From positions 1 to 60,930 of the IMG/VR virus record IMGVR_UViG_3300037119_001810: 60,930 nucleotides of DNA; one strand, written 5' to 3'. Origin of the DNA: a virus (Duplodnaviria > Caudoviricetes). The position numbers and the translations under genes were made by a program. The notes below the pieces were generated by a model. It did not search any database and was not told the origin of the DNA. It saw only the letters and a list, made by a program, of their open reading frames with translations. Shown in pieces: positions 4,079 through 53,589 of this stretch (positions within the stretch are counted from its first letter, which is position 1; every line of letters starts with the position of its first letter).

Positions 4079-4086
4079 AACGTGAG

Positions 4087-4098
4087 ACAGTATCACAC
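4087..4098 (-). promoter_or_regulatory. Extended -10 promoter (GTGTGA-TACTGT), probably leaderless
   Basis: TGn-TAnnnT lies 8 nt upstream of ATG 4078, with no Shine-Dalgarno. Confidence 0.5.
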
Positions 4099-4100
4099 CA

Positions 4101-5708
4101 TCAGCCAGCGCGCTTCAACTTCTTCAACACGTCACGACCGGCAGTCTGCGCGGCGTAGCGCACGGCGGTTTCCAAGGCACGCATGGCCCAGACCAGCGCG
4201 TCGATCCGGTTGGGTGACGGCATCCGGCCACCGCGCGACTTCGGCACCCAGCCGACCTGCTCCTTCTCCATCTCGGAGAGGTCGCCGTAGGCCGTCGGGC
4301 TGGTGACATGGGTGACCCGGCCCTGCTCGTACTTGCCGACGGTGGGCTCTGCGCGGGTCTCCTTGGACTGAGCGGCGTGGACCAGTTCGATCTTGTACGC
4401 CTCGCCGTTCTCGTCGCAAGCAATCACGGGGTGCAACTTGGCGTAGTCCTCCAAGCCCTGCTTCACGTCCTCGCCGCCGAAGTTCTTCTCCACGATGATC
4501 CGGTTGACCCGGAACAGCCGTGCAGCCTTGAACACCCGCTCAGAGCGCTCCGAGGGAGTGCCCTTCAAGGTGGCGTCGCCCAGCACGTAGAAGCGGGACG
4601 CAGGCAGCGGTGTGTCGTTCTCATCGAAGTGCTGAGCCCCGACGCCGATGATCCCGTGCGCGTCCGAGCGCGGTCCCTTGGAGCCTGCGGGGTCGACAGC
4701 CAGCACGCGGTCGTCCATCGAGTCGATCAACTCTTGGAACTCCACGGCGTCGACCCGCAGGTGCCGGAACATCTCGTCGTTCCACAGCGCACCCTCCACG
4801 TCGCGCAGCACCTCGCCGTACAACTCCTGACGGCCCATCCGGGTGCCCTCGTACTCCTTCTGCAGCATCTTGATGAAGTCGGCAGAGAGGTTCGCCCGGT
4901 TGGCGTAGGTGGACACCCGGCGAATCTCCACGGAGTCGTCGTCCTCCATCTCCATGACCCACGGCGTCGAGGTCGGGGTGGAGGTGATGAGAATGTGGAT
5001 CGGGTTGCCCGGCTTCTCGATACGAGTCGCCAGTTTCAGGTTCATCCACGCGGTCTCAATCTCGTCCATGAACGCGGCCTCGTCCACCCACGCATACGAC
5101 AGGTTGACCGACCGGATGTTCTCGGGCTTCTCGGCGGAGAACAGGTAGGTGGTCGCACCGTTCGGCCAGACGAGGATGTCCTTGGACGCGTAGTGGATCG
5201 GCACGAACTCGGGGTGCGCCCGCTCGATGATCGTGGCGACGTGGGTGTTCACGAGTTCGGTACCACGACGACCGACGATGGCCCCGTCCAGCCCCTTGCG
5301 GGCGGACAGCGTGACGAACTCGGTGCCGGTGGTGGTCTTGCCCGAGCCACGCCCGGACATGATGAACAGAATCCACGGCTTCAACCACGACGGGAGCCGC
5401 TGGTCGGCGCGAGCGTGGTTGTGCGCCCAGTTCGCGTCCAGCACCGGGCGCAGGCGTGCGCCGTCGGACTCGAACTCCACCACGTCCCCGACGGGCTCGC
5501 CCTCCGGCCCCTCAGTGGCGGTCTGGTCGACCCACCAGCCCGCGCCGTCGGCGTCGATCAACTGGTGGGGCATCCCGTCGCAGTTCGGGTCCGCGCACCA
5601 GAACGGCTTCCAGCCTGACTCCTCGATTCGCAGCAGGCGCTCGGCTACGGCGCGCTGCTCAGCCTCGGACAGGCTGTTGAAGTCAGGCGGACCCGGCGTC
5701 TGTGTCAT
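4101..5708 (-). CDS. terL: Terminase large subunit
   Basis: Walker A SGRGSGKT, Walker B AWVDEAA, coupling motif ITSTP, nuclease motifs VDPAGS and SPNRIDALVWA. Confidence 0.93.
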   Translation of the reverse strand: MTQTPGPPDFNSLSEAEQRAVAERLLRIEESGWKPFWCADPNCDGMPHQLIDADGAGWWVDQTATEGPEGEPVGDVVEFESDGARLRPVLDANWAHNHARADQRLPSWLKPWILFIMSGRGSGKTTTGTEFVTLSARKGLDGAIVGRRGTELVNTHVATIIERAHPEFVPIHYASKDILVWPNGATTYLFSAEKPENIRSVNLSYAWVDEAAFMDEIETAWMNLKLATRIEKPGNPIHILITSTPTSTPWVMEMEDDDSVEIRRVSTYANRANLSADFIKMLQKEYEGTRMGRQELYGEVLRDVEGALWNDEMFRHLRVDAVEFQELIDSMDDRVLAVDPAGSKGPRSDAHGIIGVGAQHFDENDTPLPASRFYVLGDATLKGTPSERSERVFKAARLFRVNRIIVEKNFGGEDVKQGLEDYAKLHPVIACDENGEAYKIELVHAAQSKETRAEPTVGKYEQGRVTHVTSPTAYGDLSEMEKEQVGWVPKSRGGRMPSPNRIDALVWAMRALETAVRYAAQTAGRDVLKKLKRAG

Positions 5709-6207
5709 CAGAGCCCCCTGCAGTGGGCGTGTTGCCCTCCCACGGGTCCACGTCGATGAACTCACCCACAGGCTCGTCCATCGAGTCGACCGGCACCTGT
5801 CCGGTCAGCACACCGAGCACCGGCCCGCCCTTGGCGATGCGCTCGGCCTCCCGCTGGGCACGGGTCTGCCCCTTGGGCTTCTCGGGCTTCTCGGGCTTCT
5901 CAGGCTGTTCCTCCACGACGGGCTCCTCCGGCTCCTCCACGGGCAGCGGTATCGGGTCGGGCACGGGTGCTGGTTGTTCGGTCAGCAGGGGCGCAGCCTC
6001 CGGCACCGGGGCCTGCTCGGAGTGCCCCACAGCGCGCTCGGGCAACGGCTGGTCAGCCATCTTCTCGGCCTCCGAGGGCTTGGGGTGCTTGGCTTGGGTC
6101 GGCACCGATGGCTGGTCCTCGGGCCGGTCCTCCACGATCCGGCCCACCTCGCCGCCGTGCTCGGCCTTCCCGATCTTGCCCGGCTCCTGCTTCTCAGAAC
6201 CCTTCAC
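5683..6207 (-). CDS. Pro/Glu-rich hypothetical protein
   Basis: 174-aa ORF overlapping both neighbours in the leftward operon. Confidence 0.6.
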   Translation of the reverse strand: MKGSEKQEPGKIGKAEHGGEVGRIVEDRPEDQPSVPTQAKHPKPSEAEKMADQPLPERAVGHSEQAPVPEAAPLLTEQPAPVPDPIPLPVEEPEEPVVEEQPEKPEKPEKPKGQTRAQREAERIAKGGPVLGVLTGQVPVDSMDEPVGEFIDVDPWEGNTPTAGGSDDTDAGSA

Positions 6208-6904
6208 CGGGGTCTCCCTCCTGTGGCTGCTCGACGGCGTTTCCAGAAACCACCACCGCGTCGTGTGTCTGCTCGACCGCCTCGTGGATGTCGGACTCCG
6301 GCACGTCGAAGATGTCCATGTTGTATCCGAGCCCCTGACCGGCAGCCAGCGCGTTGACCAGTTTCTCGACGGCCTCGGGTGCGGCCTCGACCTTGACCTC
6401 GGTCTGCGTCGGTGCCTCCGCGCCGTGCAGTTTCGCCATCCGGTCGAGCATCCGCATCACGCGGTCCTGATTCTCCAACTTGTCCCGGTGGGTCGGGTCG
6501 GTCGCCATCGGGTAGTCGGCCTCGATCATCTTCATGTACCGCTCGGAGACCCAGTTGCGGATGTAGGTCCGCAGGGCGGGCTGGTTGCGGATGTACCGCG
6601 CCGCGTCGTTCTGCAGCAGCCGGTCCACCTCATCAGCGCTCGCCCCGATGGACGCCCCGATCTGGGCGAGGCTGTAGCCCGCGATGTGCAGGTTGACGAT
6701 CTGCGCCAGCCGGGCAGCGGTGGCCTGTGCCGCGCTCTGGGCCTGTGCAAGGTCAGCCTCGGCAGCGCGCTCGGCCTGCTTCTTCGCCAGCCGGGCCTGC
6801 TGGGAGGGCGTGCGCACCAGCGCGACCGCCTTGCCCTTCGGTTCAGGAGCGCTCAGGTGGTCGGGCAACAGGTCGGCAAGTTCCTCATCCACTGCCGTGC
6901 TCAT
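6194..6904 (-). CDS. HTH DNA-binding protein, probable terminase small subunit
   Basis: HTH-like LHIAGYSLAQIGASIGASADEV, C-terminal RMAKLHGAEAP, position upstream of terL. Confidence 0.6.
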   Translation of the reverse strand: MSTAVDEELADLLPDHLSAPEPKGKAVALVRTPSQQARLAKKQAERAAEADLAQAQSAAQATAARLAQIVNLHIAGYSLAQIGASIGASADEVDRLLQNDAARYIRNQPALRTYIRNWVSERYMKMIEADYPMATDPTHRDKLENQDRVMRMLDRMAKLHGAEAPTQTEVKVEAAPEAVEKLVNALAAGQGLGYNMDIFDVPESDIHEAVEQTHDAVVVSGNAVEQPQEGDPGEGF

Positions 6905-7106
6905 CGTCCTCACCGTCCTCGGAGTGCTCAGGGTCCTCGGTTTCCAGAAACCCCATCATGCCACGGAACGTCATGGTGGCTGCCATCATCGCGTGCCCGA
7001 AGGCCAGCATCGCCGCTGCGTTCTGCCCGGCAGGAGTCAGCAGGTCCGGCTGATCCGCACGGTCCAGATGCTGCTCTGCCTTCCGGATGTGCTCTGCGGC
7101 GTTCAC
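6885..7106 (-). CDS. Hypothetical protein
   Basis: 73-aa ORF with GAGAGGGAG RBS, coupled to its neighbours. Confidence 0.55.
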   Translation of the reverse strand: MNAAEHIRKAEQHLDRADQPDLLTPAGQNAAAMLAFGHAMMAATMTFRGMMGFLETEDPEHSEDGEDDEHGSG

Positions 7107-7402
7107 GACTTCTCCCTCTCATCGGCCTCGGTCCGGGGCGCACTCTGAGCAAGCCGGGCCACGAGGCGGTCTATCGCGGTCGGCAGGCTGTTCCACTCGC
7201 CAGCCCACGCGTCACGCTCATGGGCGGATTTCAGGTCACGCCAGTCCGCGTCGCTGAGCCGCGTCGCTGTCCCCTCGGCCTGCATGTCCGGCGTCTTGGT
7301 TCGACAGCCACACATGGCGACCCCTGCCGGATGGTGGCAGAAGTCCCGGTAGTGGTCGAGGTTCGGGTGCCCGCATCTCGGGCAGGTGTCCGGCGTGCTC
7401 AC
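7103..7402 (-). CDS. Hypothetical Zn-binding protein
   Basis: GAGGAG RBS before GTG 7402; CPRCGH...H...C...CGC pattern. Confidence 0.55.
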   Translation of the reverse strand: MSTPDTCPRCGHPNLDHYRDFCHHPAGVAMCGCRTKTPDMQAEGTATRLSDADWRDLKSAHERDAWAGEWNSLPTAIDRLVARLAQSAPRTEADEREKS

Positions 7403-7490
7403 GGCTGACTCCTCAGCCAGCGGTACACACCCACGGCGATAGCGCTGATGGACACAAGGTCCCACACCACGACCAGTCCGATTCGGCGCA

Positions 7491-7709
7491 TCATGGCTGG
7501 TCCTCCGGTAGCAGCCCTGTCTCATCGTCGGGGGCCACCGGGACCAGCAGTTCAGCCGGGTCGACCCCTTGCGCGATCAAGTCCTCCCGCAGGCTGGCGA
7601 GCACCCGGCCCGACTCCATCAGCAGGCAGAACGTGCAGTTCTCCACAGCGCCGGGGGCCAGTCGGGCAGCCTCCCCGGTTCCGTGCCAATGACTGGTCAT
7701 CCTGCCCAT
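7491..7709 (-). CDS. Hypothetical protein
   Basis: GAAGGGA RBS; HWH and CTFC motifs. Confidence 0.5.
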   Translation of the reverse strand: MGRMTSHWHGTGEAARLAPGAVENCTFCLLMESGRVLASLREDLIAQGVDPAELLVPVAPDDETGLLPEDQP

Positions 7710-7832
7710 GTCAGTAGTCCCTTCCCGTCTGGACCACGCGCCGACACCACCTGCAGCACAGCGCCCGGCCCAAGCACACACCCTCGAACCAGTCCTCGAC
7801 CCACACCAGCGGCCCCCCGCACAGGCAGTGCA

Positions 7833-8087
7833 TCACGCGCCGCCTTCTTCTACGCCGTCTTGGGTGTCGTCCTCGTCCCTCATCCGCCCGCCGGGTGTCC
7901 GGGCCTTGTGCTGCTTCTTCGCCCGGCGCTTCTCGGCAGCGATCACCCGAGAGGTCGCGTCCCGCACGGCAGCGGACCTACTCATCCCGCGCGTGTCCGC
8001 GTACAGGTCCAGATCGGCAGCCTCGCTCACCGTCAGCCGGAGTGTCACGAACTCCGTACGCGGGTCTGTCGTCGTCGGCCAAGCCAT
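7833..8087 (-). CDS. Ribbon-helix-helix (CopG/Arc-like) DNA-binding protein
   Basis: FVTLRLTVSEAADLDLYADTRGMSRSAAVRDA is a beta-strand + two-helix RHH pattern. GGAAGGGG RBS; first gene of the leftward arm. Confidence 0.75.
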   Translation of the reverse strand: MAWPTTTDPRTEFVTLRLTVSEAADLDLYADTRGMSRSAAVRDATSRVIAAEKRRAKKQHKARTPGGRMRDEDDTQDGVEEGGA

Positions 8088-8118
8088 CGGGATCGCCCCC
8101 TTCCTAGATCAGTTGCCG

Positions 8119-8133
8119 TGTACCGTACCACAA
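8119..8133 (-). promoter_or_regulatory. Candidate leftward extended -10 promoter (TGTGG-TACGGT)
   Basis: Upstream of the RHH gene. A related CATGTTGTGGTACAG copy lies at ~8249-8263. Confidence 0.4.
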
Positions 8134-8494
8134 CATGAACCGGCCCCCCAGCAGAGTACGCGTGGTATCGCATCCACCAGAGGGCCGATCCGCCTACTGA
8201 GGGGTCTCGGGCTTGCCCCCTGTTCAGCCCCTCCATCTTACCACACGCTGTACCACAACATGGCTCGCGTGCCTGCACTGGGGTTTTGGGATTTTTTGAG
8301 AACGCGGGGTGATCTGGCGTTTCTGGAAACGGGCTGGATCACCACTACAGGGGGTGGGGGCCGGGTACCCGATACTGTGTTACACCATGGGTGGCCTGAC
8401 CAGCCAGAACAGCCATACAGCGTTCGTTACCCCTCTCTTTCTCTCTGGGGCGGCGCGAGGGTGGACAGGGCTAGGTCCTAGCCCTAGGTTTCTG

Positions 8495-8970
8495 GTTGTG
8501 GGGCCGACCAGCGGCCCCCGGTTCTGAGAGGCGGTGCCCTTGGTCTGATCCTTGCCATCCCCACGTCGCCTGCCACGTACGGCAGGCCGCATCCCGGTAG
8601 CGCAGACCGTGTGACCCTCCCGACTGGTGGCGCGAAAACAGTAGCCCTACGCCGACGGGGAGCAACTCCACAGAGACCCGAGTGCCTGCGCAGCGATGCA
8701 GGGTGAGGGACCCGGCACAGCCGGGCGATGCAGAGCAGGCGCTGCGATAGTGAGCCTGCCCGGAGAGCACACTCCGGACCTAGCCAAAGGGCAAGCGACT
8801 GTCACAGGGAGCGGCCGATAACTAGGTGAGCAAAGGATCAGGGCAAGGCCGATAGGAAACGAAGGTGAATAGTGTAGGGGCGCGGTAGGCAAGGCACGCG
8901 TACCCAGCGAAAGCGGGGGTCCTGAGAGGGACCGCGACAATCGGCAAGCAACACCCTCACTTCGGCGGGG
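8495..8970 (+). ncRNA. Candidate large structured non-coding RNA
   Basis: No credible ORF. Hairpins at 8500-8518, 8568-8587, 8711-8725, 8735-8759, 8760-8777, 8903-8917 (GAAA loop) and 8918-8933 (GAGA loop); CUUCGG at ~8960; long-range helix 8538-8555/8830-8848. Confidence 0.5.
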
Positions 8971-9069
8971 CTAGGTCTAGCACCTAGCACCGTATGAGGC
9001 GAGTTGCTTAGGGCGCTGACAATCCGATCAGCGTCCTAAGTGATTCACCTTCCAACAGAGGAGCACGAC

Positions 9070-9450
9070 ATGAACGAGAACATCATCACCCTGTCCAGCG
9101 ACGACCGCACCGCGACCGCTCTGGTCGCCGTCATCCGCTCCGCCGTCAACGGCAAGGGCAAGTACGACGCGTACGTCGGGGACCACAGCGTCACCCGCGA
9201 GACGGTGAAGGACCACGCGCTGGCCCTCGCCGTGTTCGCCTACCCGAACGAGAAGCCCGTCCAGAAGGTCGACGGCAAGCGCACCAAGTTCGGCAACGCG
9301 GTGCAGGCCGCTGGCAACGGGCTGCGCGCCGCGCTCGACAAGGAGGAGAACGACGGCGAGCCCGTCGTGAACCTGCTCACCCGCGCCGGTCTGCGAGCCG
9401 AACTGCAGGACGTCATCGACGCGTGGAACGCCGCGCAGGACAACAACTGA
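9070..9450 (+). CDS. First early protein, hypothetical (126 aa)
   Basis: GAGGAG RBS, strongly biased GC3, preceded by hairpin 9007-9040. Confidence 0.8.
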   Translation: MNENIITLSSDDRTATALVAVIRSAVNGKGKYDAYVGDHSVTRETVKDHALALAVFAYPNEKPVQKVDGKRTKFGNAVQAAGNGLRAALDKEENDGEPVVNLLTRAGLRAELQDVIDAWNAAQDNN

Positions 9451-9632
9451 CACACCCCCGCCACGGTGCGCAGTCCAGTGAGTCGGTGCTAGGTCAAGCA
9501 CCTAGCACCGACTCGGCTGGCTCGGCATACCGCCGGTTTCCAGAAACGACACGAGGGAGGCACGACCATGAACGGATATGACGAGAACGGCTGGCCCGAC
9601 GGCTCGGCCAGCGACGAGGAGTTGAGGCACCC

Positions 9633-9854
9633 GTGAACGCCTCACAGGTCGACCGCCGGGTCACCGCCATGAGGGCTAGGTCTAGCACCAAGCCCGCCCG
9701 TGTCCGCCCTGTCCGCCACTTGGGGCAGGCGTCGCTGTCCTACGGGGGCCGCAACAGGTCAGCGACCCGGATGACCGGAGCCCAGCGCAACAGCATCGGT
9801 CGGACCAGCGAGTGGAGCATGTCGCCGTACGCACCGAAGGGTGGCTGGCGATGA
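9633..9854 (+). CDS. Small basic hypothetical protein
   Basis: Coupled by GTGA/ATGA overlaps to mini-ORFs 9568-9636 and 9851-9904. Confidence 0.5.
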   Translation: MNASQVDRRVTAMRARSSTKPARVRPVRHLGQASLSYGGRNRSATRMTGAQRNSIGRTSEWSMSPYAPKGGWR

Positions 9855-10590
9855 TCTGGCTCGTGCTGATCGTCGGGGTGACGTGGCTCGGGATCAGGGT
9901 CTAGTGCCGTGGGTGCTAGGCATAGCACCGGCCACAGTGGCACGGTGCCCAACCAGACCGGATCATCGGACCGGGCGGCGTACCCGCACCGCACCCGGCA
10001 AGCCCTACGGGACGGTGCTCTGGAGTCTGAGCCTGACCTGCCAGTGGAGGGGGTGCGCCTCGGTCTTGACTGCGAGTCGGCTCCTCGTGTTGTGAGGGAG
10101 GGCCGCTACGCTCCGCCCTTCAAGCCCTACCGGTACGGCGACTCGGGGCTCCTCGCTGATCGCGCTGCGGCTCTGAGCCCCGATCCTAGCGATCCTGTCA
10201 AGTGCTAGACCTAGCACTGCTCTGAACAGGGCGAGGGTTTCTGGAAACAAGACACGGCTCCCCGCCATAGTCCCGTGCCGTCCGAGGGGGCTCACTGTGT
10301 CCGTCGAGTGGCGGCGAGTGGTCTCCCTCGGTTCCGACCCCGCCGCCCGCCGGACGTTCCGCCCCCGGACCGTCGACCGCTTCGCAGCCGACTCGGCTAG
10401 CCTGAGTCTAGCACACGCCACCTAGTAAAATGGGTGCTACACCTAGCACCCCCAACCCCAGAGAGGCAGGCTCCGATGCCCGCAACGCTCGACCCCACCA
10501 CCGCTGCGCACCCCGCTGCAGCCACCATCTACCTGTGCGAGATTGCCCGCAACGCGGCGATCCTCGCCTACCGCAGGGCACGGCGCTGAC

Positions 10591-10797
10591 ATGGCGACAC
10601 CCAAGCGGCGACGTGCCCGGTCCCGTCCGATCCGGGGTCAGCGGCACCTGACCCCGAAGCACACCTACACCCACGGTGCTACGGGTAGCACCCGACCGGC
10701 GAAGGACGACACGTACCTGCTGGACGGGCCTGATGGACAGCCGGTGCCGCACCGCTTCGACGGCAAGTGCCACCCGGACTGCGAGAACGTCCGGTGA
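10591..10797 (+). CDS. Small hypothetical protein
   Basis: ATG just after mini-ORF 10476-10589; its stop overlaps the next GTG. Confidence 0.5.
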   Translation: MATPKRRRARSRPIRGQRHLTPKHTYTHGATGSTRPAKDDTYLLDGPDGQPVPHRFDGKCHPDCENVR

Positions 10798-10946
10798 GCC
10801 GCACGACCAGAACCATCCGGACCGACCTGCCCGTCGAGGTCTGGGACAGGCTGGCCGAGGAGGCTGCCGCCAAGGGCATCCCGCTGGGCAGGCTGCTCCG
10901 CCAACTGATCGTGGCCCGCGACAAGCGCAAGCACGGTGACTCGTGA
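10794..10946 (+). CDS. 50-aa ribbon-helix-helix DNA-binding protein
   Basis: MSRTTRTIRTDLPVEVWDRLAEEAAAKGIPLGRLLRQLIVARDKRKHGDS; coupled to neighbours at both ends. Confidence 0.7.
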   Translation: MSRTTRTIRTDLPVEVWDRLAEEAAAKGIPLGRLLRQLIVARDKRKHGDS

Positions 10947-11295
10947 TGCGCCGGGTCATCGTGGCACTGGCCTATCTGACGGGCCGCACCCTTGGCAGGG
11001 TCAGCGTGAAGGTCCTGCCGCCCCGATAGTTTCCGGAAACGGTGCTAGGTCTAGCACCGAGCGGACGTAACGCATGATGGACCGACACCCTGAGCGACGG
11101 CGCTAGGCATAGCACCGGGACTGCTGGGGTCGGCCCATCGTGTGAGTCGCCCGACTCGAACCACCCTTCCATCCATCCAACAGAGGGAGGTGCCGTCATG
11201 TACGACACCACACTGAACAACCCGGCGGACATCCCGCTGGACGAGGTGCTGGCCGACATCCGTCGGGGCCAGTGGACAGACAAGGAGAACAAGGC

Positions 11296-11478
11296 ATGAC
11301 GATTCCAACCCCCACCATGCTCGCCACCCGTCCGGTGGCGATCCGCACCGTGGTCGACACCCGCTGCGGTGCCACCCGTGTCAGCGGCAAGCAGGTCGCC
11401 ACGTGCTCCCGCCACGGTGAGCACACCCGTCACGTCGACTGCCGCCAGAACGTGGCATGGGAGGGCGAGTCCAAGTGA
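11296..11478 (+). CDS. Small Cys/His hypothetical protein
   Basis: AAGGAG RBS; CGA...CSR...H..HVD pattern; follows mini-ORF 11198-11299. Confidence 0.55.
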   Translation: MTIPTPTMLATRPVAIRTVVDTRCGATRVSGKQVATCSRHGEHTRHVDCRQNVAWEGESK

Positions 11479-11643
11479 GGACCGCCGTGCATGGCACCGA
11501 ACTGGTGCTACTCCTAGCACTGGCCGTGCCCGTGCTGGTCGGTACCGTGCTGACCGGCTGGTCCTACGTCCGGATGGCGCTGGCCCGCTAGTTTCTGGAA
11601 ACCCAACCCGGTGCTACGTCTAGCACCAGAAAGTGAGAGCACC

Positions 11644-11964
11644 ATGACCTACCACACACCGATCAAGCAGGGCGACCGCGTGGCGCTGGCCCCGCACCTC
11701 GACCTGTGGATGGCGGGCATCCGCTTCGGCAACGTCGAGCAGATCCTCGTCAACGAGGAGAACGAGCGGATGTACCGCGTGGTCTGCAACCACAACACCT
11801 CGTTCTGGACCGACATCACCGGGCTGCTCGGTGCCGTCCGCCAGCCCGTGGTGGACGTGCTGGACGCCGTGGAGCAGGGTGCCACCCTCTACATGGATGA
11901 GTTCGAGGGTGAACCGCTGGACGAGCAGGGCAACCTCGTCGGCAACAAGTACCGGAGGCTCTGA
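11644..11964 (+). CDS. Hypothetical protein (SH3-like N-terminus possible)
   Basis: 106 aa; IKQGDRVAL...GNVEQI...YRV pattern; biased codon usage. Confidence 0.7.
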   Translation: MTYHTPIKQGDRVALAPHLDLWMAGIRFGNVEQILVNEENERMYRVVCNHNTSFWTDITGLLGAVRQPVVDVLDAVEQGATLYMDEFEGEPLDEQGNLVGNKYRRL

Positions 11965-12356
11965 TGATCCCGGCAGGTACTCCGCCGGGGCAGGAGCCGG
12001 GTGCTATCCGTAGCACCACCCCGATTGCCGACCGCATCGAGGCGGTGTCCACGGTACCCGTGACCCGGACGCCTCTCGTCGGCCCGACCGAGGACGACCT
12101 GCGCGCCGCCCTGCAGGGGTGGGGACAGTGAGCCGGTTCGGGTGGCTCGTGTTCTGGGCGGTGTGGATCACCATGCTCGTCGTGCTGTGGGGGATGCTCG
12201 GCTGCTCGACCGAGACGCCCTGCTGATCCGGAGGTAACGCTCGACTGTCGGTGCTGGGTGCTATGCCTAGCACCGACAGTGGAGTGAGTCACCCGGCTCG
12301 TGAGTTTCCAGAAACGCTCAACGGTTGAGCGTCCAACAGAAAGGGAGGTGCGTGCT

Positions 12357-12809
12357 ATGACTAGCACCGCCAAGCAGTACACCGTGAACGCGGTGATCCA
12401 GTGCGGCCCCGACACGGGCGTCGAGCCCGAGGTCTCGGTCCAGTGGTACAAGGGCGACAACGGGATGAAGGCCATCTCGGCTCTGGCCGGTGCTGCCGTC
12501 AACGACGAGGAGAAGGACTGGGGCGACCTGCCCGAGACCATGCGATACCGCACCCTCTCGGTCACCATGACCATCGAGGAGGTCGAGGTCGAGGGTGCTA
12601 CGCCTAGCACCGAGCCCGGCCCGGTGTCGTTCTCGTTCGACAGCGAGACGAACGACTACTCGCTGAGCGACTGCGCGTGGTGGGACATGAAGCCCCAGTA
12701 CCGCCCGTGGTGGGCGAAGGCCGACTGCTCCGGTCCCCGCATCGGTGACACGGCGCACGGCGTGCTGTGCGAGGGTCACTTCAACGCCATCCCGAAGGGC
12801 GGTGAGTGA
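12357..12809 (+). CDS. Hypothetical protein
   Basis: GGGAGG RBS; the start codon lies inside a copy of the 18-bp palindrome. Confidence 0.7.
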   Translation: MTSTAKQYTVNAVIQCGPDTGVEPEVSVQWYKGDNGMKAISALAGAAVNDEEKDWGDLPETMRYRTLSVTMTIEEVEVEGATPSTEPGPVSFSFDSETNDYSLSDCAWWDMKPQYRPWWAKADCSGPRIGDTAHGVLCEGHFNAIPKGGE

Positions 12810-12810
12810 C

Positions 12811-13089
12811 GTGAGTGCTACGCCTAGCACTGGCCCCACGGAGGGAGACGGCATCCGTACCGAGTACACCACGTACGTCGACGGCAACCCCGTCTACCAC
12901 GGTGCCTCACTGAGCGACGCAGCCCGAGCGTGGGACAAGGCCACCGTCGCCGCCGGGCAATCCGTGCCCGGCGGTGTGTCGGTCCAGTCGTGGAACCGGC
13001 ACAACATGATGGTCCGTGACGGGTGGATCATGCACGTCCACAACGACGGTACTGTCTACCTCTCGCCGTCCATCGTGGGAGCCTCCTGA
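12811..13089 (+). CDS. Hypothetical protein
   Basis: GTG 12811; the N-terminal SATPST is encoded by the 18-bp palindrome. Confidence 0.6.
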   Translation: MSATPSTGPTEGDGIRTEYTTYVDGNPVYHGASLSDAARAWDKATVAAGQSVPGGVSVQSWNRHNMMVRDGWIMHVHNDGTVYLSPSIVGAS

Positions 13090-13288
13090 AACTGGGGGTA
13101 GACAAGCCCCGCATGTTGTATTACCGTATGACCCTACGGGATGCAACACAGAGGTCGAGTGGCTGAACCGTCAGGCTGGTGCTAGGTCAAGCACCCAGTA
13201 CCAGCAGGGCGGGGGGCATCTCGGCTCCAACCCGAGGAACCCCGGACCGTCCGGGTTTCCAGAAACATCCAGAGAAAGAGAGTCCACC

Positions 13289-14242
13289 ATGGACAGCACC
13301 AACAGCAGCACCCCCGTCGACCTGATGGCGACGGACACGGAGGGCGAGAAGTCCTTCGACAAGGGCACGTGGCAGGAGGCGCTGCAGCGCAGCGCGAACC
13401 TGCTCGACCGCTCGACCAAGGCGCGCAAGCAGGCGTCCTCGCTGCTCTGGACTGGCGCGCAGACCGCCATCGAGGAGTGGCTGCCCGGTGCCGACACCGA
13501 CGTGTCGGGCGAGAACCTGTACAACGAGGTGCTCGACATCCTCGGCAAGCCCCGCAAGGGTGACGCCTCCAAGGTGCGCACCGTCGCGGTCGCCGTCAAG
13601 GACCACGGGCTGGTGCTCACCATCCACCCCAACCTGTCCAAGGCGTACGCCGAGGCCGTTCGTCTGACCAAGACGAAGCAGGTCCACGAGGACGAGGACA
13701 CGGCGGCGGACAAGGCCATCGAGGCGCTGGCGGAGAACATCCCGCACAGCACCACGACGGTCGAGGGTGCGGCGCTGATCCTGCTGAGCAAGGGGATCGA
13801 CGGCGCGGTCGTCGCCATCCTCGACGCTCTCGGTCACGGCAACGAGGCGGCTCACCGCTCCTTCATGCGAGCGGTGTCCACCGAGATTGCCGCTCGGGTG
13901 CAGGCCGCGAAGCCGAAGCCCGCGCCGAAGGCACCGGCCACGGCGAAGGGTTCGGCCAAGCCCGCCACGGGGTCGTCCCCCAAGGCGGCGGTCAAGACCG
14001 CTGGCACCAAGGCCAAGCCCGCCAAGGGCACGAAGGCGAAGCCGGTCCCGGTCTCGTCCTCGAAGGGTGACCCGAACAAGCGGGCGCTCCCGGCCAAGGC
14101 CAAGCCCGTCCAGCCCGCCACGGCGGACAAGGGCGCGCCGATCAGCGAGCCCGTCGAGGCGGGTCACGAGGCGGTCGACACCCCGACCGTCCCGGTGAAG
14201 CAGGCCGCGACGAAGGCCAAGCCGGTCGTCGTCAAGCGCTGA
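13289..14242 (+). CDS. Putative DNA-binding protein with histone-H1-like Lys/Ala/Pro tail
   Basis: 317 aa; helical N-domain followed by AKPKPAPKAPATAKG...TKAKPAKGTKAKP repeats. Confidence 0.7.
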   Translation: MDSTNSSTPVDLMATDTEGEKSFDKGTWQEALQRSANLLDRSTKARKQASSLLWTGAQTAIEEWLPGADTDVSGENLYNEVLDILGKPRKGDASKVRTVAVAVKDHGLVLTIHPNLSKAYAEAVRLTKTKQVHEDEDTAADKAIEALAENIPHSTTTVEGAALILLSKGIDGAVVAILDALGHGNEAAHRSFMRAVSTEIAARVQAAKPKPAPKAPATAKGSAKPATGSSPKAAVKTAGTKAKPAKGTKAKPVPVSSSKGDPNKRALPAKAKPVQPATADKGAPISEPVEAGHEAVDTPTVPVKQAATKAKPVVVKR

Positions 14243-14252
14243 TCCGGGCAGC

Positions 14253-14295
14253 ACATCGAGGCCCCGGTGCTTGACCTAGCACCGGGGTTTCGGTG
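14253..14295 (+). terminator. Long hairpin after the H1-like gene (terminator or processing stem)
   Basis: CATCGAGGCCCCGGTGCT / AGCACCGGGGTTTCGGTG stem with the 18-bp motif at the apex. Confidence 0.5.
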
Positions 14296-14347
14296 AGCCA
14301 CCCGGCTCGTTTCCAGAAACATCCATCCAACAGAAAGTGAGGCCGCC

Positions 14348-14590
14348 ATGAGTGAGCCTGATCCCGAGCGGTGCCCGGTGTGCGGACAGCCGGACAACTG
14401 CGGCGACTGTGACCACACGCCGGTCCTGTGCCCCGAGTGCAAGGGCGAGGGTGAGGTGACCAAGCCCGGCACCGCCACCCGCAACGAGTGGGGCGTGTGG
14501 GACAGGGACACCATGCCCTGCCCGTCCTGCCAGCCCGACCCCGGTCTGGTCGAGGACGAGCGGATCATCCGCAAGTTCGACGGCAACTGA
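14348..14590 (+). CDS. Zinc-finger protein (DnaJ-type CxxCxGxG)
   Basis: CPVCG, CGDC, CPECKGEG, CPSC. Confidence 0.65.
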   Translation: MSEPDPERCPVCGQPDNCGDCDHTPVLCPECKGEGEVTKPGTATRNEWGVWDRDTMPCPSCQPDPGLVEDERIIRKFDGN

Positions 14591-14695
14591 TCCGGACGTA
14601 ACGCATGGTGCTAGGTCTAGCCTCTGCCCCCTCCCCTCCCTAGGGGGCAGGGTGCTAGACCTAGCATCGTGTGAGTCGATCCGGCTCCAACCATG

Positions 14696-14710
14696 GTGTG
14701 TTACACTATG
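14696..14710 (+). promoter_or_regulatory. Extended -10 promoter GTGTGT-TACACT
   Basis: Near-identical copies upstream of genes at 25799-25813 and 21818-21832 (TACGCT); variant at 8376-8390. Confidence 0.6.
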
Positions 14711-14759
14711 GGGGTATCCAACACAGCAGGGTTTCCAGAAACCCCGCAGAAAGTAGGTC

Positions 14760-15740
14760 GTGATGACCGCACCAAGGAACACACCGCCCACGGGCGACGA
14801 CATCGAGTCGGCCCTCGACATCATCGAGGCCAACGGTGGCGCTGGTGACTGGGAGGAAGCGACCGGCGACAACGACGCCGGTCAGGTCCAGCGCTGGCTG
14901 TTCCCCCGCTACCTCGGCGCTGAGGACCCGGCGGACATGTACCTGTCCCGCTCCGGTCTCGGCCCCTACGACACCGACGTGGAGACGGTGGGCGCATGGC
15001 TCGCTGCTCCCCGCAACATGGTCGGTGCCGTGCTGCTGCTGGGTGAGCCCGGCACTGGCAAGACCGCGCTGATCGAGGCCGCGATCACCCACGCCGACCG
15101 GACCATGACCACCGTGGTCTGCACCCCGGACCACACGAAGGACTCACTGTTCCTCCGGTTCGTGGGAGAGGGCAACGGCGACGACGGGCGGGACGGCAAG
15201 CCGACCCCGTACACCCTCGGCGCTGTGCCCTACGCCGCCAAGCACGGGCACACCCTCTACATGGACGAGGTGATGATGCTCGTGGACGGGGTGAAGCCGC
15301 TGCTCTACCCGCTCGCTGACGGTCGACGGTTCCTCCCCGAGGGCAACGTGGACGGGTCGCCGCTGGAAATCCACGAGGACTTCCGGCTCATCCTGTCCTC
15401 GAACCCGATGGTCCGGGGTGCGTCGCTGCCCGAGCCCGTCGGCTCACGGTGCGCCAGCACCACGCTGACGGTGGACACCTCGCCCGCCATGCTGCGTGAC
15501 CTCGCCATTGACGAGTCCGTGGTGCAGGCGTGGGAGGCACTGGGCACCGCCGGTCTGTGGCGTCCGCAGATCAGGGAGATGCGTCTCGCTGACTACTGGC
15601 TGAGCATCGACCCGGCGCAGTCGGTCAGCGCGTTCCTCCCCGAGCACTGCCCGGAGAGCCAGCGTGAGCAGATCAAGAACACCGTGGTCTCGTTCCTCGG
15701 TGGTCAGGTCCGCAACGATGGCCGTCTGGTGGTGGCGTGA
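14760..15740 (+). CDS. MoxR/CbbQ-like AAA+ ATPase
   Basis: Walker A GEPGTGKT, Walker B LYMDEV, IHEDFRLILSSNP. Confidence 0.85.
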   Translation: MMTAPRNTPPTGDDIESALDIIEANGGAGDWEEATGDNDAGQVQRWLFPRYLGAEDPADMYLSRSGLGPYDTDVETVGAWLAAPRNMVGAVLLLGEPGTGKTALIEAAITHADRTMTTVVCTPDHTKDSLFLRFVGEGNGDDGRDGKPTPYTLGAVPYAAKHGHTLYMDEVMMLVDGVKPLLYPLADGRRFLPEGNVDGSPLEIHEDFRLILSSNPMVRGASLPEPVGSRCASTTLTVDTSPAMLRDLAIDESVVQAWEALGTAGLWRPQIREMRLADYWLSIDPAQSVSAFLPEHCPESQREQIKNTVVSFLGGQVRNDGRLVVA

Positions 15741-16072
15741 TGAGTGCTACGCCTAGCACCCCGGTTTCCAGAAACCGGCGGTTCGCCCGCAGGTACCGCA
15801 TGTTCGACAAGGTGAACGGCGTCGAGCAGAACCTCCACGGTGAGGTGGTCAACGGTGAGTTCGTTGACGCCTACACCACGCTCGCCACCCGTGCGTTCTT
15901 CATCAACCTCGGCGGGACCGAGGAGATGCGCCGGACCAAGGGCGGGGTGATCGTGTGCAAGTCGGTCAGCCCGCCCCACGAGGACGGCACGCACACCGTA
16001 CGGGAGGCCCGGTTCATCCCGCTGGGCGACGACGACCTGCCACTGCCCATCACCCGAGGGAAGGCGCTGTGA
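15737..16072 (+). CDS. Hypothetical protein
   Basis: Coupled ORF; its N-terminus is encoded by both palindromic motifs in tandem. Confidence 0.65.
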   Translation: MMSATPSTPVSRNRRFARRYRMFDKVNGVEQNLHGEVVNGEFVDAYTTLATRAFFINLGGTEEMRRTKGGVIVCKSVSPPHEDGTHTVREARFIPLGDDDLPLPITRGKAL

Positions 16073-16275
16073 TGCTGCGTACTCACCTGTCCTACAAGGG
16101 CCGCTCGATGAAACGGGTGCTGGTCATGGACATCACACCTGAGCACACCGACGAGGAGGTGCTAGCCGTAGCACTCGTCGCTGCTCGGGAGGACAAGTCC
16201 AGTCTGTTCGGTTGGACCATCACGCCGAACCCGGACGACGCAACCCACGCTGTCGTCACCATGCACACCGACTAG
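16072..16275 (+). CDS. Hypothetical protein
   Basis: TGATG coupling, 67 aa. Confidence 0.6.
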   Translation: MLRTHLSYKGRSMKRVLVMDITPEHTDEEVLAVALVAAREDKSSLFGWTITPNPDDATHAVVTMHTD

Positions 16276-16311
16276 TTTCCAGAAACATCCATTCCAACAG
16301 GAGGTACCACC

Positions 16312-18462
16312 ATGAAGGGCTTGAAGCAGATGGTCCAAGAGGCCGTCAAGCAGAGCACAGAGCAGGAGCAGGAGCAGGCTCCGGTGCAGGTCACCGACGA
16401 CGCACGCCGGGCGCTGTCCATGCAGATGCGGCAGTGGTCCGGCTGGGCCAACAGCGTCATCGAGTTCGGTGACCCGCGCAAGAAAGGAATGCCGTCGCCG
16501 TTCGCTGCGTGTGACCACCACAAGCGCAGGTTCCACGCCAACATCGACCGGCTGGTGCTGAACCCGAACCGGGTGCTGTTCACCGTCACCCCGTTCCGGC
16601 TGAGGCAGGAGGCGGTGCTGACCGGCGCGCTGCTGCACGAGGCGGGCCACGCCCGGTACTCGCACTGGCAGCCGAGCAGGTACGGCAACCCCGACGTGCT
16701 GCTGCACAACGACGGCGAGCCCGCCACCGCGCAGTGCGTGGCGCTCGCCCGGCTGATGGAGGAGCCCCGGATCGAGGGGCTGATGACCCGTGACGCCGAG
16801 AGGATCGGTGCCGGGTCGCTCGACTGGACCATGCGGGCCAGCGCTGCGCACCTCGCACCGATGACCACGCTGGCGACTGACCCCGGCCAGCGGATCATGG
16901 ACCTCATCACCTCGTGGGCGCTGAGGGCTGGTCGGCAGTACGCCATCCAGCACTGGGACAGCGACCACAGGACACGCAACTGGGTGTCCGACTTCACCTC
17001 GCTGCTGACCATGAGCATCGAGGCGCACCTGACCGACCTCGAAGCCAAGGGTGCGGACACGAAGCCGAACATGCACGCTCGGTTGATCGTGACGGGTCTG
17101 ATCGGGATGACCAGCATCGAGGACAACACCGGGTCGCTGATGATCGACAACGCTCGTGCGATCCTCGACCTGCTGTTTCCAGAAACCGACGAGGACGACG
17201 AGGACGGCAAGCCCGAGCCGATGCCCGGCGGGGACTGCGCCGAGCAGGAGCCCGAGGAGCAGGAGGACAGCGAGCCCGAGCAGGGTGAGGCTGAGCCCGA
17301 GAAGTCCGAGGACGAGCAGGCCGACGAGGCTGAGCAGTCTGATGAGGGTGAGCCCGGCGACGATGAGGCTGAGGCTGACGAGGGTGAGCCCGGCGAGTCT
17401 GAGGGTGAGGACGGTGAGTCCGACGAGGGCGAGCCGTCCGAGGATGACGCCGAGGGTGAGGGCAAGGGCGAGGGTGAGGGTGACCCTGAGTCCGAGGGTG
17501 AGGGCGAGGGTGAGGGTGCTACGTCTAGCACTGGCGAGCCCGACGACGAACTCTCCGAGGCGCTGCGCCAGATGGAGGAGGCAGCCAAGGACGAGTCCGC
17601 CGAGGAGGCGGGCGAGGAGGCCGAGGAGTCCGAGGTTTCCGGAAACGGGGCGGGCTCCGGCGGTGGCGGCGGTGGTCAGGGCGGCTACCGCAACCCGACC
17701 AAGGAGGAGCGTGACATCCAGAAGGGTGCCGAGCGATTCCTGCGGGACATGATCGCACCGAGCGAGTCGTCCATCGTGACGCTCACTGACACCCCGTCCT
17801 CGACGGTCAACGGTGCGGCGCTGTCGGCGTGGAAGGCAGGCGGGCAGGTCAAGGCTCCGCACTTCTTCGAGCGTACCCGCCGTGAGGTCGAGCCCTCCCC
17901 GCCGGTCAAGGTGGCGATCCTCGTGGACGTGTCGTCCTCGATGGGCTCACTGCAGAAGCCGAGTTCGGTCCTGTCGTGGGCACTGGCAGCGGCGGCGCTG
18001 GACCTGCGGAACTTCGCCGGTCGCGGCCAGCAGATCGAGTCGTGCATGATCCACTGGGGCAGCAGGTCCGAGGTGATCCAGCGCAACGGGCAGATGATGC
18101 CGGGGATCAAGGAGTTCGCCTGCGATCAGGGCACCTCCGACATGCACGGTGCGATGGCGCTGGTGGAGGAGCAGATGCCGGGGTTCTTCGATGTCTCCGA
18201 GACTCCGGTCAACCGGCTGCTCGTGCAGTTCACCGACTGGGAACTGTTCGGTCGCCAGCAGGTCACGCCGTGGATCGAGCGGGCGCTGGGTGTGGGGGTC
18301 AACATGCTGACCGTGGCCCCGAGGGACTACTCCCCCCGCCGCTCCGACCTCGAACAGATCCTGTCCGATGTCAAGGTGCAGCGGGGCACGTCGAGCCTGC
18401 TGAGGTACGACGAGGCGAAGCCGGATCAGGTGTGGCAGCACGCGGCGGAGGTGCTGTCGTGA
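16312..18462 (+). CDS. Metallopeptidase-like (HExxH) / acidic linker / VWA-domain protein (CobT-like partner of MoxR)
   Basis: LLHEAGHARYS, MEEPRIE, long Glu/Gly/Asp linker, MIDAS ILVDVSSSM...GT...FTD. Confidence 0.85.
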   Translation: MKGLKQMVQEAVKQSTEQEQEQAPVQVTDDARRALSMQMRQWSGWANSVIEFGDPRKKGMPSPFAACDHHKRRFHANIDRLVLNPNRVLFTVTPFRLRQEAVLTGALLHEAGHARYSHWQPSRYGNPDVLLHNDGEPATAQCVALARLMEEPRIEGLMTRDAERIGAGSLDWTMRASAAHLAPMTTLATDPGQRIMDLITSWALRAGRQYAIQHWDSDHRTRNWVSDFTSLLTMSIEAHLTDLEAKGADTKPNMHARLIVTGLIGMTSIEDNTGSLMIDNARAILDLLFPETDEDDEDGKPEPMPGGDCAEQEPEEQEDSEPEQGEAEPEKSEDEQADEAEQSDEGEPGDDEAEADEGEPGESEGEDGESDEGEPSEDDAEGEGKGEGEGDPESEGEGEGEGATSSTGEPDDELSEALRQMEEAAKDESAEEAGEEAEESEVSGNGAGSGGGGGGQGGYRNPTKEERDIQKGAERFLRDMIAPSESSIVTLTDTPSSTVNGAALSAWKAGGQVKAPHFFERTRREVEPSPPVKVAILVDVSSSMGSLQKPSSVLSWALAAAALDLRNFAGRGQQIESCMIHWGSRSEVIQRNGQMMPGIKEFACDQGTSDMHGAMALVEEQMPGFFDVSETPVNRLLVQFTDWELFGRQQVTPWIERALGVGVNMLTVAPRDYSPRRSDLEQILSDVKVQRGTSSLLRYDEAKPDQVWQHAAEVLS

Positions 18463-21818: not shown

Positions 21819-21859
21819 TGTGATACGCTATGCGTATCCAACAGAGAGTGAGAAAGCGC

Positions 21860-53557: not shown

Positions 53558-53589
53558 GGTTTCCAGAAACCTCTCTGCTACTAGGACGA

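What the first reader, a model, noticed from the sequence alone, without database searches (positions are those of the whole stretch)
11058..14690. Repeated intergenic long-hairpin cassettes with a conserved internal loop (RNA-processing-like element)
Seen: four intergenic elements (11058-11158, 12227-12300, 14243-14309, 14591-14688; a looser one at 9465-9530) share one architecture. An outer CCGG/CGG stem is followed by an internal loop GUAAC/GAGUC (GCAC/GAGCC in the 14243 copy), then a long stem of different sequence in each copy with many G-U pairs on the + strand, and the 18-bp motif at or near the apex. The flanks CGGA(C/G)GTAACGC (11062, 12229, 14593) and GTGAGYC..CCGRCTC (11142, 12284, 14293, 14671) are conserved while the stems differ, which amounts to intragenomic covariation. 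Known: T7 early mRNA is cut at RNase III stems between genes. Inference: these are processing or stabilising sites, a protein-binding RNA motif or a new small ribozyme. They could also act as recombination cassettes that shuffle early genes.
Basis: partly seen in the sequence, partly recalled or inferred. Interest (0 to 1): 0.8.

Follow-up and report, generated by a model that had tools for sequence, protein, structure and literature searches.

The report
Conserved-base hairpins between phage early genes
Four long RNA hairpins, each starting at or near a gene's stop codon and sharing one conserved base, punctuate the early operon of an uncultured high-GC phage and recur in its relatives; they look most like messenger-RNA processing or stability sites but have not been described as a family.

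Summary
Four intergenic hairpins lie at 11056-11158, 12223-12300, 14239-14309 and 14587-14688 on the + strand. They share an outer stem, an internal loop and a long variable stem whose top carries an 18-bp palindrome.

A covariance model built only from copies in other phages finds exactly these four in the 60.9-kb genome (E 4e-13 to 2e-7; next hit 0.016). The same base recurs in at least six related uncultured phage records, with compensatory changes. In 3 of the 4 window copies the upstream gene's TGA stop is part of the stem. No copy has a T-run, Rfam has no match, and three cultured relatives lack the element.

There are two classes: GUAAC/GAGUC (three window copies) and a variable 5' side opposite GAGCC (the 14239 copy). 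The 3' strand GAGYC-N4-GRCUC can also form a 5-bp mini-hairpin.

My best reading (about 40%) is a sense-strand RNA site that cuts or stabilises the polycistronic early transcript, built like the T7 RNase III sites. No transcript data exist. Terminator, protein-site and recombination-junction readings remain open, and a ribozyme is unlikely. The element is a new variant of a known kind.

The parts
11056..11158 (+). Cassette A, class 1 (loop GUAAC/GAGUC, inner stem GCAUG/CGUGU). The outer stem is the variant GAGCGG/CCGACUC and there is no TGA in the base.
   Evidence: 51.1 bits; 40.5 bits, E 1e-7; -54.4 kcal/mol, z -4.6.
12223..12300 (+). Cassette B, class 1. The TGA stop of the upstream ORF (12224-12226) is in the base.
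   Evidence: 58 bits; 45.4 bits; -51.1 kcal/mol, z -7.3.
14239..14309 (+). Cassette C, class 2 (5' loop AGCAC, 3' loop GAGCC). The TGA stop of g29 (14240-14242) is in the base.
   Evidence: 47.3 bits; 39.8 bits; -50.8 kcal/mol, z -8.1.
14587..14688 (+). Cassette D, class 1, the longest stem. The TGA stop of g30 (14588-14590) is in the base. It ends the first early transcription unit.
   Evidence: 71.3 bits; 62.9 bits; -71.9 kcal/mol, z -9.9.
9465..9530 (+). Degenerate relative. It is a strong hairpin with a palindrome at the apex and a CCAG/CUGGCUCG base, but it has no internal loop.
   Evidence: 16.1 bits, E 0.11; -44.2 kcal/mol.
11144..11157 (+). 3'-strand mini-hairpin or palindrome GAGUC-N4-GACUC of cassette A.
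12286..12299 (+). 3'-strand mini-hairpin GAGUC-N4-GGCUC of cassette B.
14295..14308 (+). 3'-strand mini-hairpin GAGCC-N4-GGCUC of cassette C.
14673..14687 (+). 3'-strand mini-hairpin GAGUC-N5-GGCUC of cassette D.
11099..11116 (.). 18-bp palindrome (1 mismatch) at the apex of A.
12257..12274 (.). 18-bp palindrome at the apex of B.
14266..14283 (.). 18-bp palindrome (1 mismatch) at the apex of C.
14651..14668 (.). 18-bp palindrome (1 mismatch) in the 3' arm of D. It pairs with a degenerate copy in the 5' arm at about 14607-14622.
14696..14707 (+). Extended -10 promoter-like GTGTGTTACACT, 8 nt after cassette D.
   Evidence: Of 11 matches to TGnTAnnnT in the genome, 10 are intergenic. The same arrangement follows the matching cassette in G003 and L301.

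Best explanation
The cassettes are sense-strand RNA elements inside the polycistronic early transcript. That transcript runs rightward from about 9,050 to cassette D at 14,688.

Each cassette starts at or next to the stop codon of one gene. It has four parts: a 9-bp outer helix (UGAUCCGGnC with GnCCGGCUCA), a small internal loop, 15-31 bp of nearly perfect helix, and a short C/A-rich leader to the next ribosome-binding site.

I think the host double-strand RNase (RNase III) or a similar endonuclease recognises this module and cuts at or near the conserved 3' side of the loop (GAGYC). The upstream message would then end in a protective 3' hairpin. The downstream message would begin with GAGYC-N4-GRCUC, which can refold into a 5-bp 5'-terminal hairpin. 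This is the logic of the five RNase III sites in the T7 early transcript.

Shown: the structure, its strand bias, its position, and its conservation with covariation. Inferred: that it is cleaved, which enzyme does so, where the cut falls, and the protective role of the mini-hairpin.
For: 1. The structure is real and conserved.
- Twenty copies from 11 sources form 91.6% standard pairs over 15 base pairs, and 9 of the 15 pairs show double changes. None of 500 shuffles reach this, and slid controls give at most 45% pairing (12-copy version).
- Model R2, built without any window sequence, recovers all four window copies.
- A copy reached through protein homology alone, upstream of the ATPase in L301, has the same loop and new compensatory outer pairs.

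2. The sense strand is favoured.
- In 18 copies of the close family there are 52 G-U pairs against 8 A-C mismatches on the sense strand. The sense fold is the more stable in 16 of 18.
- R1 scores the reverse strand of the four window copies at 14 bits or less.

3. Position.
- In 22 of 25 rows, the TGA in the base closes an upstream open frame. These frames are mostly of high GC3; 2 of the 22 have low GC3 and one is a 13-codon nested duplicate row.
- In the other 3 rows a TGA lies a few bases upstream.
- An RBS and start were located 16-83 nt downstream in 24 of the 25 rows. None was located after window cassette D.
- All copies point the same way as the genes.

4. Architecture matches the T7 early RNase III regions folded here: lower stem, conserved internal loop, upper stem, intercistronic position in an early operon.

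5. The helices have 20-40 pairs in all. By established knowledge this is long enough to be a generic bacterial RNase III substrate.

6. The cassettes are not ordinary terminators. None of the 8 terminator-like sites in 8000-16500 is a cassette, and no cassette is followed by a T-run.

7. Other strong intergenic hairpins of the same phage lack the base module, at 26672-26706 and, on the minus strand, at 53585-53615 and about 55510-55550. The module therefore adds something beyond hairpin stability.

8. The mini-hairpin is possible in 26 of 26 copies, with the variable pair being C-G in 15, U-G in 9 and U-A in 2, and C-A in none. RNAalifold, run on its own, prefers it to the outer stem.
Against: - There are no transcript data. 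No RNA run holds the sequence, so neither cleavage nor transcription of the hairpins is shown.
- RNase III needs no conserved sequence, so the strict conservation of CUGAUCCGG and CCGGCUC is not explained by that enzyme alone.
- The upper stems vary from 15 to 31 bp, so a cut measured from the apex would not fall at a constant place.
- Copy A is more stable on the reverse strand.
- The 8 more distant single copies show no G-U bias (7 against 7).
- Many copies were found with patterns that fixed the loop or the tail. Their conservation is therefore partly ascertainment.
- With the loop left free, I judged only 8 clean hairpins by eye in a truncated scan. Five have GAGCC, one has GGGCC and two have no loop.
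- One relative (L305) has the palindromes and 12-mers but no cassette, so the element is dispensable.
Confidence: 0.4

Rival explanations
1. The cassettes are transcription terminators or attenuators of the early operon. Transcription stops or pauses at the hairpin. A DNA-binding protein on the apical palindrome adds a roadblock, in the manner of 'stoperators'.
For: - Cassette D ends a unit and is followed 8 nt later by an extended -10 promoter. The same order is seen in G003, L131 and L301.
- The hairpins are very stable.
- All four window copies carry the operator-like palindrome.
- PeSL cassettes of T4-type phages combine a terminator stem-loop and a promoter (abstracts of PMC2839356 and PMC4122927).
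Against: - No T-run follows any copy.
- A, B and C sit inside the unit with no promoter after them.
- Two other promoters, at 21821 and 25802, have no hairpin before them.
- The conserved loop and base are not needed for termination. The phage's other intergenic hairpins lack them.
Confidence: 0.2
2. The conserved base is mainly a junction for gene exchange. Short identical ends (CTGATCCGG... and ...CCGGCTC) let phage recombination swap or delete the small early genes between cassettes, as PeSLs do in T4-type phages. Any RNA role is secondary.
For: - Ten of the 10 ORFs between or just after cassettes (g20-g28, g30) have no tblastn match in the early regions of five relatives. The flanking g29, ATPase and g34 do match.
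- The slot between the g29 cassette and the pre-ATPase cassette holds an 80-aa Cys-rich protein in the window and an unrelated 257-aa secreted-type protein in G003. In L301 a single cassette sits before the same promoter and ATPase.
- Single copies with the same base occur in otherwise unrelated viral contigs.
Against: - The shared ends are only about 10-25 nt.
- This reading does not explain compensatory changes, the G-U strand bias or the maintained long stems.
- No integrase or site-specific recombinase appeared among the 50 of 91 predicted proteins scanned.
- Only partial regions of the relatives were searched.
- L301's upstream gene could not be shown to be g29.
Confidence: 0.15
3. The base is a specific protein-binding site. 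It could act in RNA (a regulator, or a decoy for a host nuclease) or in DNA, through the inverted repeat GAGYC-N4-GRCTC bound by a dimer.
For: - Sequence is strictly conserved where pairing alone would allow change: GAG and CUC are invariant in 20 of 20 copies.
- The 3' strand is a 5-4-5 inverted repeat.
- The phage encodes a ribbon-helix-helix protein next to the switch region.
Against: - The repeat occurs nowhere else in an intergenic region of the window. Of 4 matches, 3 are in cassettes and 1 is inside the ATPase gene.
- No binder has been identified.
- The base is shared by contigs that show no other similarity, which favours a host factor.
Confidence: 0.15
4. The element is a small self-cleaving ribozyme.
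For: A conserved internal loop sits between helices. The 3' strand contains A-GUC, which I recall as resembling the hairpin-ribozyme substrate rule.
Against: - No ribozyme family matches, even at E up to 5.
- There is no second loop or pseudoknot domain.
- The 5' side of the loop is free to vary in class 2.
Confidence: 0.03

Closest known systems
RNase III processing sites of the T7 early transcript (R0.3, R0.5, R1, R1.1, R1.3)
   Same: Both are intercistronic hairpins in a host-transcribed early operon. Both have a lower stem, an internal loop whose sequence recurs from site to site, and an upper stem (T7 intergenic regions folded; cassettes). There are several per operon.
   Different: There is no sequence similarity. 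T7 upper stems are 9-10 bp against 15-31 bp here. The T7 loop is asymmetric. The cassettes include the stop codon and an optional operator palindrome. Cleavage is proven for T7 and untested here. The T7 site positions are recalled, since the RefSeq record does not annotate them.
PeSL (promoter-early stem-loop) cassettes of T4-type phages
   Same: Both are short repeated regulatory cassettes with a stem-loop, lying among small non-conserved early genes, and both are associated with gene replacement between relatives (abstracts of PMC2839356 and PMC4122927).
   Different: PeSLs carry a sigma-70 promoter in every copy and act as terminators. Here only cassette D is followed by a promoter, there is no T-run, and the stems differ between copies while only the base is shared.
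Dispersed palindromic repeats of actinophages (the 17-bp repeat of Cluster O mycobacteriophages; stoperators of Cluster A)
   Same: The 18-bp palindrome at the cassette apex behaves like these: many copies, in and between genes (PMC4351075 passages). The Cluster A stoperators are recalled.
   Different: Those are bare DNA sites. The cassette base is a separate element that occurs without the palindrome in L064 and L131, and the palindrome occurs without the base in L305.
REP-type extragenic palindromes close to stop codons (recalled: Liang, Rudd and Deutscher 2015)
   Same: Both are stable hairpins within a few nucleotides of a stop codon that can shape mRNA stability and the upstream gene's translation.
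   Different: REPs are chromosomal, conserved over their whole length and belong to hosts, not phages.

Membership tests
T7-type RNase III processing site | Intercistronic position in a polycistronic early operon | tested here: met
   the four copies lie between co-directional genes in 11-14.7 kb, downstream of the divergent switch region, and the next + strand promoter is at 14699.
T7-type RNase III processing site | Hairpin with a lower stem, an internal loop repeated between sites, and an upper stem | tested here: met
   compared with the T7 folds.
T7-type RNase III processing site | Cleavage by RNase III at a defined bond | not testable with these tools
   No RNA run holds the sequence.
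T7-type RNase III processing site | Sequence relationship to the T7/T3 sites | tested here: not met
   By eye: the loops and stems are unrelated.
PeSL cassette | Sigma-70-type promoter in each cassette | tested here: not met
   a promoter-like site follows only D; no two-hexamer promoter in 8000-16500.
PeSL cassette | Lies among non-conserved small genes and marks replacement break-points | tested here: inconclusive
   one slot holds different cargo. Only partial relatives were compared.
Intrinsic (rho-independent) terminator | GC-rich hairpin followed by a T/U-run | tested here: not met
   none of the 8 sites found is a cassette; the 3' flanks are C/A-rich.
Any Rfam family, including self-cleaving ribozymes | Match to a curated covariance model | tested here: not met
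   no match at gathering score in the whole window; only sub-threshold miRNA-precursor hairpin matches at E of 0.017 or more.
Integron attC site | Complementary core sites (recalled consensus RYYYAAC/GTTRRRY) and an integron integrase | tested here: not met
   The loop strands ..AAC and GAGYC are not complementary. No tyrosine recombinase appeared among 50 of 91 predicted proteins scanned.

The most novel reading that the evidence does not exclude
The cassette is a two-state, translation-sensing RNA device. A ribosome terminating at the UGA in the stem base would melt the outer helix. The freed 3' strand would then snap into the GAGYC/GRCUC mini-hairpin. The choice between the closed long hairpin and the open form with the mini-hairpin would decide whether a nuclease cuts and whether the downstream message is protected. 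The fate of each early message would thus be coupled to translation of the gene before it. Because the base is shared across unrelated phages, the recognising factor would be a host one.
Probability: 0.12. Interest if true: 0.8.

Novelty: new variant of a known kind. Interest (0 to 1): 0.55.

Why it matters
Almost nothing is known about post-transcriptional control in phages of high-GC Gram-positive bacteria. This is a compact module that can be modelled: 64-68 positions, 15 pairs, E below 1e-7 in a 61-kb genome. It marks gene boundaries in early operons, tolerates any upper stem and can carry an operator.

If it is a processing site, it would be an actinobacterial counterpart of the T7 RNase III sites. 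It could serve as an insulator between genes in Streptomyces or Mycobacterium-type expression constructs.

If it is mainly a recombination junction, it would extend the PeSL idea of mobile regulatory cassettes beyond T4-type phages. Either way the model helps to annotate gene ends and ORFan cassettes in metagenomic phage genomes.

Tried and rejected
- **Close DNA relatives among cultured phages.** Megablast found none. The nearest proteins are 27-39% identical, from Curtobacterium, Microbacterium and Gordonia phages. Kithara, Sunfish and OneinaGillian have no R1 hit better than E 0.2 (0 of 3).
- **Tighter patterns.** These gave 12 stretches. Six lie in five high-GC phage records. Six are in 38-52% GC contigs, which I treated as chance without folding them.
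- **Bacterial genomes.** The pattern gave 121 matches (scan truncated). Six passed a fold filter, and only L247 (with L229 doubtful) looks like a member. Other R2 hits are weak and fold poorly.
- **RNase P substrate idea (3' NCCA after the helix).** By my reading, only about 4-5 of 24 copies have it. Dropped.
- **Mimicry of the 16S rRNA decoding site or 3' end.** I fetched three actinobacterial 16S genes. The likeness is 8 of 11 on one strand and 5 of 6 on the other. TGATCC is complementary to a 6-nt stretch before the anti-SD, but only the three cassette stops use TGA-TCC. I judged this too weak.
- **GAGYC-N4-GRCTC as a free-standing DNA site.** It is not found outside cassettes. The three copies in L305 are a coding repeat.
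- **Literature.** The 12-mer motif as a text string gave no phage paper. Searches for RNase III or stem-loop repeats in actinophages and for phiC31 inverted repeats found no description of this element. The phiC31 genome paper was not held, so its conserved inverted repeats could not be compared. Supplements were not consulted.


Full report
**What the window is**

The 60,930-base window is a whole IMG/VR virus record, estimated 99% complete, with 66% G+C. My GC3-based gene call gives 91 ORFs.
- Structural genes, including the large terminase, lie on the minus strand at 1-8,087 and 36,554-60,847.
- Early and replication genes lie on the plus strand from 9,070 to 36,557. They include an AAA_5 ATPase, DUF2800, an Enc34-type SSB, DNA polymerase A, an SNF2 helicase and a Prim-Pol.
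- No cultured phage is close. Megablast finds nothing, and the best protein matches are 27-39% identical, in Curtobacterium, Microbacterium and Gordonia phages. The host is probably an actinobacterium.

**Checking the observation**

The four elements fold as single long hairpins at 11056-11158 (A), 12223-12300 (B), 14239-14309 (C) and 14587-14688 (D).
- MFE values are -54.4, -51.1, -50.8 and -71.9 kcal/mol. The z-scores are -4.6 to -9.9, and none of 200 shuffles folds as well.
- The common plan, from 5' to 3', is: (C)UGA-UCCGGnC, then a loop, then a long stem, then a loop of GAGYC, then GnCCGGCUC.
- A, B and D have the loop GUAAC/GAGUC. That is a 3x3 loop UAA/AGU closed by G-C and C-G, followed by the conserved pairs GCAUG/CGUGU, which include two G-U pairs.
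- C has AGCAC/GAGCC.
- Every upper stem carries the 18-bp palindrome GGTGCTAnnnnTAGCACC. This palindrome occurs 23 times in the genome allowing one mismatch, 22 of them in 8968-17531, against 0 expected.
- The hairpin at 9465-9530 keeps only a CCAG/CUGGCUCG base and scores 16 bits.

**Relatives**

Searching with the ATPase protein found three related viral contigs at 63-70% amino-acid identity. Pattern scans then found more.
- A model of the base (R1: 12 copies, 15 pairs) gives, by my count of the listed hits and their folds, 7 cassettes in G001, 4 in G003 and 1 each in G002, G004 and G005. All are on the coding strand of the early region.
- A metagenome search with the ATPase added L301. It has a class 1 copy directly upstream of the same promoter and ATPase.
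- L305 has 15 palindromes and nine 12-mers but no cassette.
- Single copies with the same base occur in otherwise unrelated viral contigs: L158, L159, L161, L163, L164 and L166. One more is in a bacterial genome contig, L247.
- Three cultured relatives lack it.
- Rfam has nothing. There is no hit at gathering score in the whole window, and only sub-threshold miRNA-like hairpin hits at E of 0.017 or more.

**Two classes**

- Class 1 has GUAAC/GAGUC plus GCAUG/CGUGU. Members are A, B and D, three copies in G001, two in G003, and one each in G002, G004, G005 and L301.
- Class 2 has a variable 5' loop (UCCGC, UGAAC, CCACC, CACUG, AGCAC, CCAAC and others) opposite an invariant GAGCC. Members are C, four copies in G001, two in G003 and the distant copies.
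- The apical palindrome is optional. L064 and L131 have plain GC stems.

**Is the structure selected?**

- On 20 copies, 91.6% of cells form standard pairs. Nine of the 15 pairs show changes on both sides (33 cells), and none of 500 shuffles reach any measure. Sliding the partner by 1-3 columns drops pairing to 19-45%. The alignment was fitted to the model, which favours the structure.
- The MAFFT alignment of 12 copies gives 91.1% pairing and 7 of 15 pairs with double changes.
- Outer-stem variants such as CCGUGC/GCACAGG, CCUUAC/GUAGGG, CCAGAU/ACCUGG and CCUGGC/GCCAG keep pairing.
- Model R2 was built from 18 copies, none from the window. It finds A-D at E 3.6e-13 to 1.5e-7, and the next hit is at 0.016.

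**RNA or DNA?**

- In the 18 close-family copies there are 52 G-U pairs against 8 A-C mismatches on the sense strand. The reverse strand shows 16 against 33. The sense fold is the more stable in 16 of 18.
- About 22 of those G-U pairs are the inherited GCAUG/CGUGU pairs, so they are not independent events.
- Copy A is an exception, and the 8 distant copies show no bias.
- I read this as moderate evidence for function in the sense transcript.

**Context**

- In 22 of 25 rows the TGA in the base closes an upstream open frame. Most of these frames have high GC3. L006:6956 (0.52) and L247 (0.46) do not, and one row is a 13-codon nested duplicate of L229.
- In the other 3 rows a TGA lies a few bases upstream.
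- An RBS-plus-start was located 16-83 nt downstream in 24 of the 25 rows. None was located after window cassette D. The intervening leader is C/A-rich.
- In the window only the three cassette stops have the context TGA-TCC, out of 62 TGA stops.
- No copy is followed by a T-run, and none of the 8 terminator-like sites in 8000-16500 is a cassette.
- A promoter-like consensus GTGTGnTAnnnT has 11 matches in the genome, 10 of them intergenic. On the plus strand the intergenic matches are at 14699, 21821 and 25802.
- A-C are therefore internal to the first early unit and D ends it, with a promoter 8 nt later. The same order is seen in G003, L131 and L301.
- Other strong intergenic hairpins of this phage lack the base module.

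**An alternative fold**

GAGYC and GRCUC on the 3' strand are complementary.
- A 5-bp mini-hairpin is possible in 26 of 26 copies. The one variable pair is C-G in 15, U-G in 9 and U-A in 2, and never C-A. L301 adds a third U-A case.
- RNAalifold on the 20-copy alignment chooses this mini-hairpin instead of the outer stem.
- It excludes the outer stem, so the element can in principle switch between two states.
- As a DNA repeat it occurs nowhere else in an intergenic region of the window.

**Gene content**

- Of 35 window ORFs starting between 7,000 and 22,000, 8 have tblastn matches in the early regions of five relatives.
- None of the 10 ORFs between or just after cassettes (g20-g28, g30) does. 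Only 16-19 kb of each relative was searched.
- Between the class 2 cassette after g29 and the class 1 cassette before the ATPase promoter, the window has an 80-aa Cys-rich ORF and G003 has an unrelated 257-aa secreted-type ORF. L301 has a single cassette there.
- This resembles the hyperplastic regions and PeSL cassettes of T4-type phages (abstracts).

**Comparison with T7**

I folded the five intergenic stretches of the T7 early region where I recall the RNase III sites to lie. The record does not annotate them.
- Four of the five show a 6-8-bp lower stem, an internal loop with recurring sequence (ACUC... / ...UUAUGAU) and a 9-10-bp upper stem. The R1 region folds into the upper stem only.
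- The cassettes have the same three-part plan and the same kind of position.
- They differ in having longer upper stems, a symmetric loop, a built-in stop codon and no sequence likeness.

**Verdict**

- My best reading is a sense-strand processing or stability site for the early polycistronic RNA, at about 0.4.
- The rivals are a terminator or attenuator (0.2), a recombination junction (0.15, not exclusive of the others), a specific protein site in RNA or DNA (0.15) and a ribozyme (0.03).
- No call shows cleavage. No RNA data exist for this phage.
- The searches found no description of the element. The phiC31 genome paper was not held, so its conserved inverted repeats could not be compared.

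Noticed in passing
window, whole length (for example 9536-9547, 12304-12315, 14309-14320, 14731-14742): The 12-base palindrome GTTTCYRGAAAC occurs 53 times in 60.9 kb against 0 expected. It lies inside genes as well as just upstream of ribosome-binding sites. It is also frequent in relatives (L005-L008, L011, L305) and absent from L009 and L010. Its function is unknown. No phage paper contains the string.
   Followed up: partly
window 8968-17531 and 30361: The 18-bp palindrome GGTGCTAnnnnTAGCACC occurs 23 times allowing one mismatch, and 22 copies are in the early operon. Several overlap start codons (12352, 12815, 15744). Relatives use 17-bp versions of it. It looks like an operator or stoperator set. 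The ribbon-helix-helix protein at 7833-8087 (-) is a candidate binder.
   Followed up: partly
window 14696-14707, 21818-21829, 25799-25810 (+); 57438, 49551, 45953, 8243, 8130, 4095 (-): The consensus GTGTGnTAnnnT, an extended -10 type, has 11 matches in the genome, of which 10 are intergenic. These are probably the phage's host-polymerase promoters.
   Followed up: partly
window 8088-9069: About 1 kb between the divergent operons has no convincing ORF, is partly purine-rich and has no Rfam hit. It may hold a long leader or a non-coding RNA.
   Followed up: no
window 13289-14242: g29 (317 aa) is conserved in relatives and has no Pfam or PHROG match. It ends in a long K/P/A-rich basic tail like those of actinobacterial nucleoid proteins, and it is followed by a class 2 cassette in the window and in G003. 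In G001 the nearest cassette lies about 200 nt beyond the homolog's matched end.
   Followed up: partly
window 57477-58487 (-): This protein has an Mtd_N (major tropism determinant N-terminal) domain, E 5e-7. I did not look for a diversity-generating retroelement.
   Followed up: no
window 26672-26706 (+), 53585-53615 (-), about 55510-55550 (-): These are plain GC-rich intergenic hairpins without the cassette base and without T-runs. One has the 12-mer at its apex. They may be 3'-end hairpins of highly expressed genes.
   Followed up: partly
L305 7555-7597: In this relative a 17-bp palindrome is flanked on both sides by the 12-mer, forming one long hairpin. The window has the same pairing of motifs at 11029-11058.
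   Followed up: no
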